Source: Octopus vulgaris (lineage: Eukaryota). From it: DNA of 64,000 nt. The notes under the pieces are model-generated. The model saw only the letters and a program-made list of their open reading frames with translations. It ran no database searches and was not told where the DNA came from. A program made the translations under genes and the position numbers. Location of the stretch: contig OX597829.1 of assembly GCA_951406725.2 (NCBI GenBank), positions 52,638,001-52,702,000 on the forward strand. The letters are read 5' to 3'. Shown piece by piece: positions 7,725 to 53,509 of the stretch (positions are counted from its first letter, which is position 1; each line of letters begins with the position of its first letter).

Positions 7725-8344
7725 TAGAATCCTTCCATGATCATCCAGCTGGAAAAAACTCTTCTCCAGTAGAATGGTTTATAGAGACGTCTGTGTGTGT
7801 GTGTGTGTGTAAATGTTTGCATGTTTGTGCAGATGTGTATTAGAGTATGTGTAAATGTGTATATGTGTGTGAATGTGTTTGCATTTGTGGAGATGTTTTT
7901 GTCTGCGTGTTTGTGTAGTTTGCGTTTGCATCTACATGCTCGTAAATATGTGCATACACTCATGAGGTCTATGAATGTGTCTGCGTGCACACACACACAC
8001 ACACACACGTACATCTGATGTTATTAGTTTTGATATACAACTCATGTCAGTTTAAGCAGACATACATTAATTGTTTATGGGTATTCACTCTCTTATTAAA
8101 GAAGGTAAAAAAAAAATTTTGCTTTATTTTGTATTTCATTAGGTTCAGCAACAGTTTAAAAAGAAAAATAAGAATCTCTCGTTAGATTCACTACTACTTT
8201 CTATTAGCATTCCTTTTAGAATTAAGCAAGGAGAGAAACCAATTTGTCCAAGAATTCAGTATCTGTGGTAGAAGTATTGTTTCCAACCATGTAACTGTTG
8301 TAGAATGTTCTAGGTATGACTTTAAATTGCATCTGGTTGTGGGG

Positions 8345-8602
8345 CTCTGGTGTGGGAGTTGTGGGTCTCTGGCGTGGGAGTTGTGGTGCTCTGGTGTGGG
8401 AGTTGTGGTGCTCTGGTGTGGGAATTGTGGTGCTCTGGTGTGGGAGTTGTGGTGCTCTGGTGTGGGAGTTGTGGGACTCTGGTGTGGGAGTTGTGGTGCT
8501 CTGGTGTGAGAGTTGTGGGTCTCTGGTGTGGGAGTTGTGGTGCTCTGGTGTGGGAGTTGTGGGTCTCTGGTGTGGGAGTTGTGGTGCTCTGGTGTGAGAG
8601 TT
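8345..8602. repeat. 22-bp G-rich minisatellite, about 12 units
   Basis: Unit CTCTGGTGTGGGAGTTGTGGTG with a GGGT variant. It generates the repetitive ORFs at 8222-8673. Confidence 0.95.
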
Positions 8603-8699
8603 CCCGTGTTTTGAGGAGTGTGGAATCACCCCTTGACCCCTATTGTTCTCAAGACTACTCTGATCCACAGTAGTAACACCTGTCAGGGTCCCAGTTGTG

Positions 8700-9460
8700 G
8701 GTTAATTAGGATATTGGGGGCTTCCTAGCTATGCATGTGAAGACTGGATCAAGCATACTCTGCAGAAGAAACCATCATAGTTCAACTGAGGGGACGACAG
8801 CTGCAGCAGTGCATGAGGAAGTGCAGAGAGCAAACTGAGGCAAGTAATACATCTTGGGCCATCCACTGCATCTGTCCCCATCTCTGGTCATCTTGAACCG
8901 GTCTTTCCACCAGAATGAAGATAGTCATTAAGGTGGCGAGCTGGCAGAATCATTAGCACACCGGGCGAAATGCTTAGCAGTATTTCATATGCCACTACGT
9001 TCTGAGTTCAAATTCCGCCGAGGTCGACTTTGCCTTTCATACTTCCGGGGTCGATTAAATAAGTACCAGTTATGCACCGGGGTCGATACAATCTGCTTAA
9101 TTCGTTTGTCTGTCCTTGTTTGTCCTCTCTGTGTTTTAGCCCCTTGTGGGTAGTAAAGAAATATGTATTTCGTCTGCAGCTACATTCTGAGTTCAAATTC
9201 CACCAAGGTTTGACTTTGCCTTTCATCCTTTTGGGGTCGATAAATTAAGTACCAGTTACGCACAGGGGTCGATACAATCTACTTAATCCGTGTGTCTGTC
9301 CCTTGTTTGTCCTCTCTGTGTGTAGCACCTTGTGGGTAGTAAAGAAATAAGAATGCAGATAGTCAGAGACGAGAGAGTGAGACTGACAATGTGCAGGTCT
9401 TCTTCACCTTAAATGAAATCACTGTGCTCTTAAGGATGACTAAGCTGGTCCTTGTTGTTC
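8700..9460 (-). mobile_element. RTE-like LINE 5'UTR fragment split by a SINE
   Basis: Minus strand CAGTCTCACTCTCTC...TCAAGATGACCAGAGATGGGGACAGATGCAGTGGATG resembles RTE 5'UTR sequence as I recall it; not searched. Confidence 0.4.
8928..9349 (+). mobile_element. Family B SINE, partial tandem dimer
   Basis: Head AAGGTGGCGAGCTGGCAGAATC, B-box-like GAGTTCAAATTCC, core GGGGTCGATTAAATAAGTACCAG. The 3' two-thirds is repeated at ~9166-9349. 16-bp TSD AGAATG(A/C)AGATAGTCA at 8912-8927 and 9350-9365. Confidence 0.85.
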
Positions 9461-10953: not shown

Positions 10954-13130
10954 ATCACTGTATTGATCAGACTGTCAGATGTTGTTATACATTGCTGGTC
11001 ACAATATTCTTCCTTGCATTGTTGTAGCTGTTGACTGATGCCCTTCTGTTGCTTTGGCAGGCAAGCCAACGCTCCCCCTGAATGGGGTACCCATCTATAG
11101 GGTTACCCATGTATATGGGAGAAATTACAATAAACACAAGTTTATATCATTTATTCCCCACACATGTTTCACCATTGTGGTTGTTTGGAATCTAAGCATT
11201 GGATTCTCTAAGAGCAGTTGAATGCTTAACCGCTATAGATTATCAGAGAATACTTTAATTCTTCCTCTGTATATCATGACCAAAATACTACAAAGTAGTT
11301 GCTTAACCACAATGCTAGAAACAGACTGGATGATGATAATCTACAAAGAGCTCTAAACTTAATTGAACCAGTTGTACACCTAATTGTACACATGATATAT
11401 GCCAGTACATGTACACACACACACACACACACACACATTTCTCACTCTGTAAATTGACTTCTGTTAGGAGCTGGATCTAATGGTAGAAAGCTGGCTAGAT
11501 AAAATACACGAGTGAGGCACAGTACCCTGCCCCTATCTCCGATACATTTTGGACAGTAACTCTAAGTTCCAACTTGGACCCGAAACCCATTCTCCCAGCC
11601 ATGCCAGCTTAGAAATTGGATGTAAAAAATGATACTGATGTGTGTGTGTGTGTTTAATTTATTTAACAAATATCGGATTTATCCATTTTGTAAATTGTAA
11701 GAAAGCGATGTAGGAAAAACCCTGTTATAGTAAACCTTATGTTTGTATTGAAGAATCTTAGTGTAGGCTATGTTGCTTTTCACTCTTCAACATCTCTACA
11801 AATCAACAGACAAACATCAAAGCGGTGGTGGTGGTGGTGGTAATAGGGCTCTATACAATTGCTCTTTAATTACCTTCAAACCACAACATAGCATTCATCA
11901 TCATCATCATCATTATCATGAAACATATGTTTTTCATGCTTGCATGGGTTGGACCGGTTGACAGGATCTGAAGAGCTGCAGAACTGGATTGAACTTCAGT
12001 GTTTGCTTTGGCATGGTTTTTGCAGTTGGATGCCCTTCTTAGCGTGACCTTATAATAATAATAATGATGATGATGATGATGATGATGATGATAATAAAAA
12101 AGCACATGTTGAGAAATGTACTCTTGGACATCATTTATTGAAATCAAGATATGTTGGTCATGCTTGGAATATTTTAGTTATTGGCCTGCTGAGCCTAGCC
12201 TTAGCAGCAACAAGCACACACACACACACGCTCTCCTCTCTCTCACTCTCACTTATTCAGTTAATTAATTTTGTCATGAAATGTATAAAAGGTAAATCAG
12301 TTTCAATTTTTGGCACAAGGCCAGTAATTCTGGAGGAGGGGTAAGTCAATTACATTGACCCCAGTGCATAACTGGTATTTATTTTATAGACCCTGAAAGG
12401 ACGAAAGTTGACTCTGGCAGAATTTGAACTCAAAATGTAAAAATAGAGAAAATGGCACTAAAATATTTTGCTCGCTGTGCTAATGGGTCTGCCAACTCAC
12501 TGGCTTAGAATGTACAAGATATATATTCTTTTCTACTCTAGGCACAAGGCCTGAAAATTTTGGGGAATTTGAACTCAGAACGTAAAGACAAATGAAATAC
12601 CTCTAAGTATTGCACCCGGTGTGCTAATGTTTCTGCCAGCTCACCACCTTGTATAAGATGTATATTAAAAGACGATGGTAAAGATAAGACAAGTCGGAGG
12701 AAGACACAAGGGAGATGGCGATAAATGAGTGTTTATGGGTATGTGTGAGCGTGCATCCAAACATGCATGTGGCAATAGTCAAATATGGCCTAAGCCATAA
12801 TAGCTAAAACAGAGATAAGGATTAAAGAAGATGTACATTTATGTGCATGCACGCACACACACACACACACACACACATGTGGGTTCATGAATACCGATAC
12901 ACACCATACGTACATATTTGGGCATGCACACAGAGATTTCCTAGAAGCGATTTTTGTAATCTAGGACATTTGATTGCTTCTGGTTAAGTGTTCATCTTAA
13001 TGCTGTCACAAGACCAAAGCAGGGTGCAATAGTCCAGGCAATTGAGATGAACCACTTTCCACAGGATCAATTCAACTTCCTGTTTTACTGTAAATAATCT
13101 TACAACCAATCCTGCCTGTCATATATATAT

Positions 13131-13334
13131 ACCGGAGTAAACACATAAATGTGGAGCAAGGTGGAAAAAAAAGTACTCAAATACCAGAGGTAGAGTAATA
13201 TGCTTTATTTAAAAGCAGCAGAAATTTAACAAAAGCTGTTACTTGGAATTTCACGTTCCTGTCTGACGAACGGGAACGTGAAACTCCGAGTAACAGCTTT
13301 TGTTAAATTTCTGCTGCTTTTAAATGAAGTATAT
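13131..13334. mobile_element. Penelope-like pLTR fragment in inverted arrangement
   Basis: 65-bp inverted arms at 13198-13262 and 13270-13334, flanked by (TA)n, carrying the hammerhead motif. A homologous copy lies at ~44100-44330. Confidence 0.6.
13259..13296 (+). ncRNA. Minimal type I hammerhead ribozyme motif (Penelope-like type)
   Basis: CTGT (stem I) - CTGACGA (core) - ACG GGAA CGT (stem II with GNRA loop) - GAAA - CTC C GAG (near-palindromic stem III) - TA - ACAG (stem I'). All core nucleotides are present. The cleavage triplet is GUA, with the predicted cut after 13292. Confidence 0.75.
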
Positions 13335-13365
13335 ATATGTATGTGTGTATATATATATATGTATG

Positions 13366-13453
<88 letters not shown>

Positions 13454-13785
13454 TGTTGAGCTTCTTGGAGTTAAGTGGCTGAGTTCCTTTAGAGCGTTGG
13501 GCCTCACAGGGGTAATGATGAAGATCTTTGATATTATATCGTGTTTGAGAAGATCCATCAAATCGGGCAAAATCTCAGTCATGGTGTCACACAAATGGCA
13601 CCTGTGCCGGTGGCATGTAAAAGCACCCATTATACTCTCGGAGTGGTTGGCATTAGGAAGGGCATCAAGCCATAGCAAACCATGCCAAATCAGACTGGAC
13701 TCTGGTGCAGCCTTCCACTATGCCAGTCCTGTCCAACCCATGCCAGCATGGATAACGGACGTTAAATGATGATGATATATATGTT

Positions 13786-14342
13786 CTCTTTTTTATTCTT
13801 GCTTACACATTCTGGGGCACCACCTTTAGTCGAACAAATCGACCCCAGGACTTATTCTTTGTAAGCCTAGTACTTATTCCATCTGTCTCTTTTGTTGAAC
13901 CACTAGGTTTTGGGAACATAAGCACACCAACATCAGTTGTCAAATGATGGTGGTGGGGGAGACAAACACAGACACACACACATAAATGTATATACATATA
14001 TATATACATGAGGGGCTTCTTTCAGTTTCCGTCTACCAAATATACCCACAAGGCTTTGATCGTCTCAAGGCTATAGTAGAAGGCACTTGCTCAAGCTGCC
14101 ACGCAGTGGGACTGAACCCAGAACTATGTGGTTGAGAAGCAAGCATCATTCCACACCTGCACCTAGCATTGCTTGACAACCGATGCTGGTGTGTTTATGT
14201 CCCCATCACTTAGCGGTTCGGCAAAAGAGACCGATAGAATAAGTACTGGACTTACAAAGAATAAGTCCCGGGGTCGAGTTGCTTGACTAAAGGCGGTGCT
14301 CCAGCATGGCCGCAGTCAAATGACTGAAACAAGTAAAAGAGA
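13786..14342. mobile_element. Two abutting family A SINEs in opposite orientation
   Basis: A minus copy at 13786-14161 is followed directly by a plus-strand 3' half at 14162-14342. Confidence 0.8.
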
Positions 14343-14762
14343 TTTTAAAAAAAAAAAAACATCTGGCCAAATTTGGACATACGACAGTTTAACATAATAG
14401 CAATGATATATATTATTTAAAGGCAGTGAGTTGGTGGAATAGTTAGCTCACAGGTTAAAATACCTAACAGCATTTTGTGTGACTTTACATCTTGTGTTTA
14501 AATTCCATTGATTGACTCTGCCTCCCATTCTTTTGGGGTCAATAAATTAAGAGAACTGGGGTCAGTGTAATGTATTAACCTCCGCCCCCATAATATAGTG
14601 TAAGGGTTTATACATGTTATAATCAACTGTATGGTTGTAATGTCTCCTGGTTGCAGTATGTTGAATATACTGATGTTCTTGGAATCTTCCTGTCTAATTT
14701 CATGATGCTTTCATCAGCCTATGTATATGAAACATTGAGGTGTTTTTGAAGGATCTTGATTT

Positions 14763-15058
14763 GTAAGCCTAGTACTTATTCTATCGGTCTCTTTTGCCGA
14801 ACCGCTAAGTGACAGGGACGTAAACACACCAGCATCGGTTGTCAAGCAATGCTAGGGGGACAAACACAGAGAGGACAAACAATCACAGACAAACAGATTA
14901 AGTCGATTATATCGACCCCAGTACGTAACTGGTACTTATTTAATCGACCCTGAGGCTATAGCAGAAGACACTTGCCCAAGATGCCACGCAGTGGGACTGA
15001 ACCCGGAACCATGTGGTTGGTAAGCAAGCTACTTACCACACAGCCACTCCTGCGCCTA
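14763..15058 (-). mobile_element. Chimeric family A/B/A SINE insertion with a long flanking duplication
   Basis: A body 14763-14870, B core 14871-14950, A head 14951-15056; 43-bp direct repeats at 14720-14762 and 15059-15101. Confidence 0.75.
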
Positions 15059-16076
15059 TATGTATATGAAACATTGAGGTGTTTTTGGAGGATTTTGATT
15101 TTCAAGTGCATTTATATTTTGGTATGATGGAGAAGTCTGTTACAACCAATACAAAGATTGTATATATCGAGGTACTTTATGATGAGTTGTTGACTTTTTT
15201 TTATTATTATTTTAAATAGATACCATTGACTTTTCAGCAAATATCTCATTTATTATATTCGCTGTGTGGCAATGATGCAAATATAATTCTACAGTTTTAG
15301 TTTGATTTTGTCAAAAGCCTATTTTAATCCAAGACTAACTGGTGCCAATACTAAATTGTACCATAATTTTCTGCCACCAATCACTGGTGTGTCTACGTTA
15401 ATAGCAGCAGCGATAGCAATAGCTTCCATGACAACAGCAAGAAGTAACAGCAGCTCTATACTAGCAACAGTCTTGGTCAGCAGTTTTCTCAACCAATCAG
15501 CTAGTGTACCTACTCATAATCTTAGTGGCCTGTGTCATAATTTTTCAACCCAGTTAACTTTTAACAGTAACTGGTGCCAATACAAGCCGATGTCATCAAT
15601 GTTTCTAACACACCAGTAACTTAAAACCAAAGCTATATTAAATGTTGCTAGTCATGGTTTGTTTTACTGTCCTGGTCACTGGTAGTTGTCCAGCATGCAG
15701 ACCAGTGTACAGTTATAGTGTTACTAGTTGTGGCAGCTGAGAACAGCAGGGATCATTTGGCACAGACCAGATTGGCAGTTTTATTAGTTGTTCCACATCA
15801 GACGTAGCTGTTAACTTCCATGTTGCATCTTATTGGTTGTCCAGATGTTGACATTGCAGAATGGAGGTGACCAGCTTTATTGTAATTCGTCTTCCTGGAT
15901 ATCGGGTGAAGATGAGCAAAAATTGTCCAGTGAATTTATTTCTAGTTCTAGTTTTTGACATTATGGAGAAGATCATGATACTGCCCCCCCCTTCAACCAA
16001 ACAGATGGTGGTGTCAAACCAGAAGGCACAATGTATCTGCTACCACAAGGATGTTACATTCTATTCCCTGCTTTTC

Positions 16077-44099: not shown

Positions 44100-44330
44100 A
44101 AGTATGCTTTTATTAAAACTAAAAACCTTCACAGACAGTTACTCATGTTACCATTTATCGAACAGTTGCCGTCACAACTGTCCAGTGAACAGTAACCTGA
44201 AACTCTGAGTAACAGTCTTGTTAAAATTCTGCAGCTTTAATAAAAGCATATTACTCTACTTTTGGTATTCAAGTACTATTTTTTCCCACTTTATTTTGCA
44301 GTTATGTACTTACTTGTGTGTGTGTGAGTT
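44100..44330 (+). mobile_element. Degenerate second copy of the Penelope-like/hammerhead repeat
   Basis: AACTGT-CCAGTGA-ACAGTAACCT-GAAA-CTCTGAG-TA-ACAGT is followed by sequence matching the reverse complement of ~13150-13240. The catalytic core has decayed, and a diverged inverted arm lies upstream. Confidence 0.6.
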
Positions 44331-53221: not shown

Positions 53222-53359
53222 AAGAAAATAAAAAAAAAGAGCAATAATTGTCTTTATGTGTGTTTTATGGGAAGCAAAAGAAGTAAATTTTATTTATATG
53301 TGAAATATATGTTTGTTTGCATACATTGATTCTATTGTTTGTTTGTTTTTCTTTTCCAG

Positions 53360-53509
53360 ATATAACTAGAATTAAAAAGGTTACACCTCTTTATGGTCAA
53401 CCTTCCTGGTGGGGAGAACCAGACATAGTTGAGAATGACCCAGTGGATTCTTCAAACAGCTCTCAAAACCAAAAGAAGAAATGCAATGATAGTGAAACAT
53501 CTGACAAAC
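53360..53509 (+). CDS. CEP170: Internal coding exon of a CEP170/CEP170B-like centrosomal protein
   Basis: Polypyrimidine acceptor ...GTTTGTTTTTCTTTTCCAG| ends at 53359 and donor |GTAATT starts at 53510. The exon is 150 nt, phase 1-1 and open: (D)ITRIKKVTPLYGQPSWWGEPDIVENDPVDSSNSSQNQKKKCNDSETSDK. TPLYGQPSWWG is recalled as the conserved motif after the FHA domain of CEP170-family proteins; no search was run. Confidence 0.85.

What the first reader, a model, noticed from the sequence alone, without database searches (positions are those of the whole stretch)
13198..13334. The ribozyme is caged: its CUGACGA box is exactly the loop of a competing 65-bp hairpin
Seen: arms 13198-13262 and 13270-13334 pair over 65 bp and leave only CTGACGA (13263-13269) as the loop. 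On plus-strand RNA four of the five imperfections are G-U wobbles and one is an A-C mismatch (A13248 opposite C13284, the first base of helix III). Inference: the antisense arm sequesters stems II, III and I', which would silence cleavage and may be why the insertion is tolerated. The long duplex with an A-C mismatch is also a favourable ADAR substrate, and A-to-I editing is extensive in coleoids. It may simply be a neutral inverted pLTR duplication.
Basis: partly seen in the sequence, partly recalled or inferred. Interest (0 to 1): 0.7.

Follow-up and report, generated by a model that had tools for sequence, protein, structure and literature searches.

The report
Head-to-head Penelope stump with hammerhead
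The hairpin and its self-cutting-RNA motif are real, but they are one of hundreds of mirror-image stumps of a Penelope-like jumping gene in this octopus genome, likely made at the moment of insertion, so the predicted blocking of the ribozyme is likely an ordinary by-product and not an evolved off-switch.

Summary
Observation confirmed: 65-bp arms, four G-U, one A-C, CTGACGA between them, sense within a ~70-kb intron of a CEP170-like gene. The insert (13131-13329, in a TA microsatellite) is two 5'-truncated pLTR ends of a Penelope-like retrotransposon joined head to head, a published layout; full-length relatives (pLTR, 727-aa ORF, pLTR) are in the genome. 48 of 89 sampled copies have the inverted arm, at least 529 such hairpins exist, and this exact junction recurs at 13 loci, mirror-symmetrically, at a 3-of-4 microhomology between stem I and stem II. 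The arm is predicted to block the fold (46 kcal/mol), but the lone motif is a dimer-type minimal hammerhead already disfavoured by 4-5 kcal/mol, and its lineage mostly carries CCGACGA: the canonical U4 is probably later CpG decay. G-U pairs are not enriched family-wide (42 against 54 A-C), there is no A>G bias, and 16 of 32 intact-core tail arms lie uncaged. Transcription, editing and the gene-orientation test could not be checked. The scan noted the same layout before, in other families of this genome. Ordinary.

The parts
13121..13130 (.). left part of the (TA)n target microsatellite
   Evidence: sequence; relatives sit in TA runs
13131..13202 (-). 72-nt one-sided 'tail' of the long arm; in full-length elements this sequence runs on into the ORF start
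   Evidence: L155, L151, L156
13203..13262 (-). inverted, 5'-truncated pLTR copy that starts at stem II and lacks the catalytic box; two transitions (13244, 13248) against the family majority; this is the 'cage' arm on + RNA
13259..13262 (.). junction overlap CTGT: stem I 5' strand of the short arm, and 3 of 4 letters of the reverse complement of stem II 5' strand
   Evidence: (overlap 4)
13259..13296 (+). minimal type I hammerhead motif: stem I 13259-13262/13293-13296 (cut from about 13 bp in longer copies to 4 bp), core CTGACGA 13263-13269, stem II 13270-13279, GAAA 13280-13283, palindromic helix III 13283-13291, predicted cut after A13292
   Evidence: activity not tested
13259..13329 (+). 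short, tail-less 5'-truncated pLTR copy ending at the internal 3' end used by most short arms and by L151 and L156
13330..13450 (.). right part of the TA-rich target microsatellite; its first five bases extend the hairpin
53359..53508 (+). exon of the CEP170-like host gene that closes the intron holding the hairpin; the preceding exon lies about 16.5 kb before the window (G000:C16:52621260-52621472, +)

Best explanation
This is a 199-base remnant of a Penelope-like retrotransposon, two shortened copies of the element's ribozyme-bearing end joined head to head in a TA microsatellite, likely formed in one insertion event and likely neutral, whose mirror arm is predicted to block a minimal hammerhead that would cut poorly on its own anyway. 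Shown: family membership, the two fixed 3' ends, the recurrent junction, the host intron. Inferred steps: the element's enzyme nicks both strands of (TA)n and primes two cDNAs on uncleaved element RNA, one at the tail end and one 72 nt inside; both stop in or near the hammerhead; their ends anneal through 2-4 nt of microhomology. Here the overlap is CUGU (stem I) against ACGG (stem II), which flank the catalytic box, so the box ends up as the loop automatically. CpG decay later likely turned the lineage's CCGACGA into the canonical-looking CTGACGA.
For: [quoted passage not shown] 505 exact matches to a 41-nt tail-arm probe, 0 for the control. 48 of 89 copies picked by that probe have an adjacent inverted short arm, 32 of 53 adjacent inverted matches end at the same base. 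132 + 397 hairpins with exact stem II anchors in both arms. Same junction at 13 loci (12 independent), core on the short arm in 6 and on the tail arm in 6. 30 of 48 junctions overlap by 2 nt or more (from local alignments); the 6 of 31 registers with microhomology hold 26 of 50 short junctions, p 2.5e-7. Arms of one insertion share the subfamily marker in 30 of 34 cases, 0.54 expected, p 2.7e-5. Only 4 of 89 tail arms and 1 of 48 short arms start at the cleavage site. Core position 4 is C in 74 and T in 16 of 92 arms, a rate not different from four other CpG sites (p 0.42); T is on one arm only in 11 insertions and on both in 1. Layout described in PMC8557442, PMC3846280; two RT start sites and uncleaved template in PMC11167929; single minimal motifs inactive in PMC4209133.
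Against: Microhomology does not explain everything: the register with the best self-match (17) holds only 1 of 50 junctions, while the window's register is the commonest (9 of 50), so a further bias (RT stops, palindrome instability or selection) acts. 15 of 48 junctions carry inserted bases and no overlap. The young ORF-intact relatives carry a canonical CTGATGA core, so inheritance of U4 cannot be excluded for this copy, although its own sub-lineage has C in 4 of 5 and 11 of 15 arms. Neutrality is inferred from the family: no orientation-in-genes test was possible. Pfam and PDB gave no hit for the 727-aa ORF. Arkhipova 2013 favours self-priming on an antisense template for such junctions.
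Confidence: 0.85

Rival explanations
1. Selected cage: arms arise mechanically, but sense-intronic copies survive only if the arm silences a ribozyme that would otherwise cut the pre-mRNA.
For: Motif is sense in a CEP170-like intron; arm is predicted to block the fold by 46.2 kcal/mol; this copy has a canonical core and all nine helix pairs are Watson-Crick. A 2026 preprint reports exclusion of tandem retrozymes from introns and exons in Xenopus (abstract).
Against: Arm-less motif is 3.9-5.5 kcal/mol from the ensemble (probability 1e-3 to 1e-4) and has 4 bp of stem I left; such motifs are reported inactive as monomers; at insertion the core was probably C4, a variant said to reduce activity considerably in vitro; 16 of 32 intact-core tail arms have no antisense arm (their gene context is unknown); in 21 of 48 hairpins both arms carry a core, so caging is strand-symmetric.
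Confidence: 0.07
2. Functional dsRNA: the hairpin is kept as an ADAR substrate or small-RNA precursor acting on the host transcript.
For: Very stable duplex with an A-C mismatch; squid editing sites in introns and UTRs tend to overlap repeats (PMC9068888 passages).
Against: Four G-U of five transitions has p 0.19 by chance; across 38 hairpins G-U 42, A-C 54, other 50, p 0.26; A>G 50 of 2959 against T>C 70 of 4318, p 0.85. Two longer inverted repeats lie within 1.5 kb. Editing A13248 would give an I-C pair and tighten, not open, the duplex (inference). The nearest known host exon is about 30 kb away. Incidental editing is likely but would not be a function.
Confidence: 0.03
3. Snap-back or later duplication: one cDNA folded back at the stem I/stem II self-match and copied itself, or a 199-nt hairpin unit spread as such.
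For: The self-match at this register exists within one molecule; arms share subfamily markers; self-priming was proposed for PLE palindromes.
Against: In 6 of 12 independent same-junction copies, this one included, the core is on the short arm while the other arm carries tail sequence that the short arm lacks, which fold-back of the core-bearing cDNA cannot supply; junctions differ from copy to copy, unlike a transposing hairpin unit.
Confidence: 0.05

Closest known systems
5'-truncated insertions of endonuclease-positive Penelope-like elements with an adjacent inverted pLTR and one-sided tail (Craig et al. 2021, PMC8557442; Arkhipova et al. 2013, PMC3846280; passages read)
   Same: Head-to-head inverted 5'-truncated copy, overlap or palindrome at the junction, tail on one side only, (TA)n target, pLTR-ORF-pLTR parents in partial tandem.
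   Different: Tail is about 72 nt and not 30-40 nt; both arms are cut down to the hammerhead region; the host is an octopus family for which one search (4 papers listed) showed no description.
Minimal type I hammerheads of metazoan PLEs (Cervera and de la Pena 2014, PMC4209133; results and discussion read)
   Same: Type I topology, short palindromic helix III, location in the pLTR, mostly single dispersed motifs, some pairs on opposite strands 100-700 bp apart.
   Different: Short stem II (3 bp) starting with A-U and not G-C; lineage majority has C at core position 4; stem I cut to 4 bp in this copy.
Poseidon element PAc of Anolis (Frangieh et al. 2024, PMC11167929; main text read)
   Same: Two 3' ends that bound the tail, AT-rich target, no sign that cleaved RNA is the template.
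   Different: PAc is Penelope/Poseidon clade; the ORF here has a cysteine-rich linker before the endonuclease, as described for Neptune/Nematis; starts here coincide with TA-like letters.
Non-LTR retrozymes (bioRxiv 10.64898/2026.07.22.740005; abstract, introduction and start of methods read)
   Same: Non-coding, PLE-derived, type I hammerhead.
   Different: Retrozymes are direct tandem repeats with a ribozyme in each unit; this is a single inverted pair.

Membership tests
EN+ Penelope-like element (truncated copy) | Sequence belongs to the pLTR of an element with direct pLTRs around one ORF | tested here: met
   L155: 1856-nt partial tandem at 99.5%, pLTRs flanking a 727-aa ORF; window arms 86-90% identical
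EN+ Penelope-like element (truncated copy) | Parent ORF has RT plus C-terminal GIY-YIG endonuclease | tested here: met
   YRDD, GVVY..YTG and C-terminal Cys/His motifs read from the translation (motif names recalled); Atlas neighbours with GIY-YIG, HTH_animal, RVT_1; Pfam itself gave 0 hits
EN+ Penelope-like element (truncated copy) | Adjacent inverted 5'-truncated copy and tail on one side | tested here: met
   Window and 48 of 89 sampled copies
Neptune/Nematis clade | Cys-rich linker before GIY-YIG and RT phylogeny | tested here: inconclusive
   Linker CNC..C..C present in L155 as described; no tree was built
Minimal type I hammerhead | CUGANGA, GAAA, NUH core with three helices | tested here: met
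   nine of nine helix pairs Watson-Crick, GUA triplet
Minimal type I hammerhead | Palindromic helix III allowing a dimer | tested here: met
   13283-13291 self-duplex -7.8 kcal/mol; co-fold of two motifs forms the intermolecular helix III
Minimal type I hammerhead | G10.1-C11.1 pair | tested here: not met
   Stem II starts with A-U here and in the family; G-C is called highly conserved
Minimal type I hammerhead | Self-cleavage | not testable with these tools
   no assay
Non-LTR retrozyme | Direct tandem units, each with a hammerhead | tested here: not met
   single inverted pair; no direct copy within 11000-16000 or in the window apart from a diverged copy at 44187-44314
Selected antisense-silenced ribozyme | Arm enriched in sense-intronic intact copies | not testable with these tools
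   no gene annotation available for G000

The most novel reading that the evidence does not exclude
The head-to-head insertion habit works as a genome-wide safety catch: it mutes hammerheads that land sense in introns, selection keeps those copies and removes bare ones, and this lets a ribozyme-bearing retroelement reach very high copy number inside octopus genes.
Probability: 0.07. Interest if true: 0.55.

Novelty: new member of a known kind. Interest (0 to 1): 0.14.

Why it matters
As a single locus it does not matter: it is a fossil insertion. The family as a set is of modest use. Hundreds of junctions record how PLE insertion ends are joined (two fixed 3' ends, one parent for both arms, uncleaved template, microhomology hot spots), a step that the papers read call unresolved. 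An abundant lineage with a CCGACGA core beside a young ORF-intact lineage with CUGAUGA offers a natural pair for asking whether PLE hammerheads need to cleave. If selection for caged sense-intronic copies were shown, it would give the inverted pLTR a host-level consequence.

Tried and rejected
Rfam: 0 hits at gathering in the window, and only generic hairpin or TA-repeat matches among 26 at E up to 10. Pfam on three ORF fragments of L121 and on the 727-aa ORF, PDB sequence search: nothing useful. Sequencing runs: no RNA holder listed; laying 5 of the 24 listed runs (X19, X20, X1, X12, X2; all contigs) was swamped by paralogous repeats, so transcription and A>G at 13248 could not be judged; one X19 contig crosses the left insertion junction without differences. 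The first microhomology table used a single natural copy that was not typical at the core and was redone with per-column majority letters; only one search is used for that test. ADAR signature in the template RNA and G-U enrichment: tested, absent. Lunse et al. on PLE hammerhead dimers was not held; only its title and a review's summary (PMC6765202 passages) were seen; it and supplements of the papers read (none opened) may already list C4 or A10.1 variants. A search for hammerhead + U4C + core + variant gave one paper, which shows U4C is known from a viroid (passage). Search of earlier findings by sequence gave nothing. Loss of AATAAA at 13323-13328 as the reason for tolerance: rejected, 46 others lie on the + strand of the same intron within the window.

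Full report
OBSERVATION. The inverted repeat is as described: 65-nt arms at 13198-13262 and 13270-13334, 92% complementary, 7 nt apart, with four G-U and one A-C on + RNA and CTGACGA between them. It folds at -97 kcal/mol, z -21.7. Directly downstream of the box are a 3-bp stem II, GAAA, a 2-bp palindromic helix III, GUA and a 4-bp stem I, all nine pairs Watson-Crick: a minimal type I hammerhead motif, which Rfam does not detect.

CONTEXT. A window peptide is identical to Octopus CEP170-like proteins. One exon lies in the window at 53359-53508 on +, the preceding coding stretch at G000:C16:52621260-52621472 on +, with GT and AG at the borders. The hairpin is therefore in an intron of about 70 kb, and the motif is sense to the pre-mRNA. 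Transcription itself was not shown (uninformative).

THE ELEMENT. The insert is longer than the hairpin: 13131-13329, between TA runs. A genome search gave 2325 candidates, 40 scored, all with the same two-arm layout; that set is biased towards the query. For a set independent of the junction I searched a 41-nt probe downstream of the ribozyme: 505 exact matches, control 0. I took 90 of the 100 listed places (left out: one partner arm on C2 and nine on C4) and dropped one more partner (L052), n = 89. Of these 48 have an adjacent inverted short arm, 53 any adjacent inverted match, 32 of which end at the same base. Longer copies lead into an ORF, and a protein search found many long frames. Of 10 fetched, L155, L151 and L156 hold a 727-aa ORF between direct pLTRs; the window's arms are 82-90% identical to those pLTRs, 86-90% for L155. 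[quoted passage not shown] L155 ends at the tail end, L151 and L156 at the internal end: the same two 3' ends as the two window arms. An adjacent inverted 5'-truncated copy with a one-sided tail is the published PLE layout (PMC8557442; PMC3846280), and two RT start sites bounding the tail, with uncleaved RNA as template, were shown in vitro for an Anolis PLE (PMC11167929).

WHY THE BOX IS THE LOOP. The exact junction occurs at 13 loci, 12 independent, with unrelated flanks; the core is on the short arm in 6 and on the tail arm in 6; the overlap reads CCCGT in 7 and CCTGT in 6 of 13, as expected if a mismatched overlap is resolved either way. Anchored searches find 132 hairpins with spacers of 0-30 nt and 397 with 31-60 nt. 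Among the first 50 of the 132, the window's register (13 nt) is the commonest, 9 of 50 (7 clearly the same junction, 2 ambiguous; counted from the listed coordinates), p 3e-5 against uniform, or about 4% of all anchored hairpins. With family majority letters, registers 8, 9, 13, 17, 25 and 30 offer microhomology and hold 26 of 50 junctions (p 2.5e-7; Spearman 0.66). Register 13 is CUGU of stem I against ACGG of stem II, which flank the box. Against a pure microhomology rule, register 17 has the best match and only 1 of 50. Both arms usually come from one subfamily (30 of 34, 0.54 expected), 5' ends crowd around the ribozyme (64 of 89 tail arms between -20 and +30) and rarely at the cut site (4 of 89). 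I infer two cDNAs primed on opposite strands from uncleaved RNA and joined by their ends; fold-back of one cDNA cannot give the window's form, in which the core-less arm has the longer 3' end.

IS THERE ANYTHING TO CAGE? In the hairpin the hammerhead fold is 46.2 kcal/mol above the ensemble, so the block is predicted. Without the left arm it is still 3.9-5.5 kcal/mol above (probability 1e-3 to 1e-4; no tertiary contacts modelled), and two motifs prefer an intermolecular helix III. Single minimal PLE motifs showed no cleavage and dimers little (PMC4209133). The lineage core is CCGACGA: position 4 is C in 74 and T in 16 of 92 arms, like four other CpG sites (p 0.42), T sits on one arm only in 11 insertions and on both in 1, and 11 of 13 same-junction copies have C; the window's sub-lineage has C in 4 of 5 and 11 of 15 arms. 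The canonical U4 here is thus probably post-insertion decay, with the caveat that young relatives have CTGATGA. U4C is known from a viroid as a variant with much reduced in vitro activity (PMC3088659). Of 32 tail arms with intact core and at least 4 nt of stem I, 16 have no antisense arm over the motif; their gene context is unknown. In 21 of 48 hairpins both arms carry a core.

MISMATCHES AND ADAR. Any transition in a hairpin gives G-U on one strand and A-C on the other. Two of the four G-U are boundary effects; the other three differences are single transitions. Four of five has p 0.19. In 38 hairpins with at least 10 comparable columns (10 of 48 fell below that) there are 42 G-U, 54 A-C and 50 others (p 0.26), and no A>G excess over T>C (p 0.85). 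Editing of a long intronic duplex is plausible, since squid editing outside coding regions overlaps repeats (PMC9068888), but it is untested here, and I-C at 13248 would tighten the duplex (inference).

COMPARISON AND VERDICT. It works like, and is a member of, the inverted truncated PLE insertions; it carries a minimal dimer-type hammerhead motif with an A-U in place of the usual G10.1-C11.1; it is not a tandem retrozyme. One paper search for Penelope + octopus + hammerhead listed 4 papers, none on this family by title or abstract start; this is a limited library. Eight earlier notes of this scan describe the same layout in other places of this genome; they are unchecked AI notes, my reading was formed before the look-up, and one gave me the Arkhipova 2013 reference. 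Verdict: real, ordinary, likely neutral; interest 0.14.

Noticed in passing
window 44187-44314: A diverged relative (79-85% to the query), tail arm sense on + in the same intron, core decayed to CCAGTGA, with a short decayed inverted piece before it.
   Followed up: partly
window 13323-13328: The short arm's AATAAA, sense to the host gene, reads AATGAA; the column is invariant in 139 sampled arms, of which the tail arms were fixed by the search probe. Probably chance.
   Followed up: partly
L155 (G000:C4:132440500-132447000), L151, L156; many 727-aa frames: A young subfamily of this PLE with nearly identical 727-aa frames and a canonical CTGATGA core, beside the older, abundant CCGACGA lineage; Pfam does not recognise the protein.
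   Followed up: partly
window 13808-14308 and 14162-14856: Two longer inverted pairs of common repeats (136 nt at 85%, 97 nt at 95%) close to the hairpin; other potential intronic duplexes.
   Followed up: no
G000:C26:8321607 and 8323017 (L135, L136): Two identical same-junction copies with identical flanks 1.4 kb apart: a local duplication.
   Followed up: no
L043, L053 junctions: Both carry 27-29 inserted bases between the arms that resemble another common repeat of this genome (by eye), as if a foreign template was copied during end joining.
   Followed up: no
window 8186-8701: Tandem repeat giving long low-complexity open frames on both strands.
   Followed up: no
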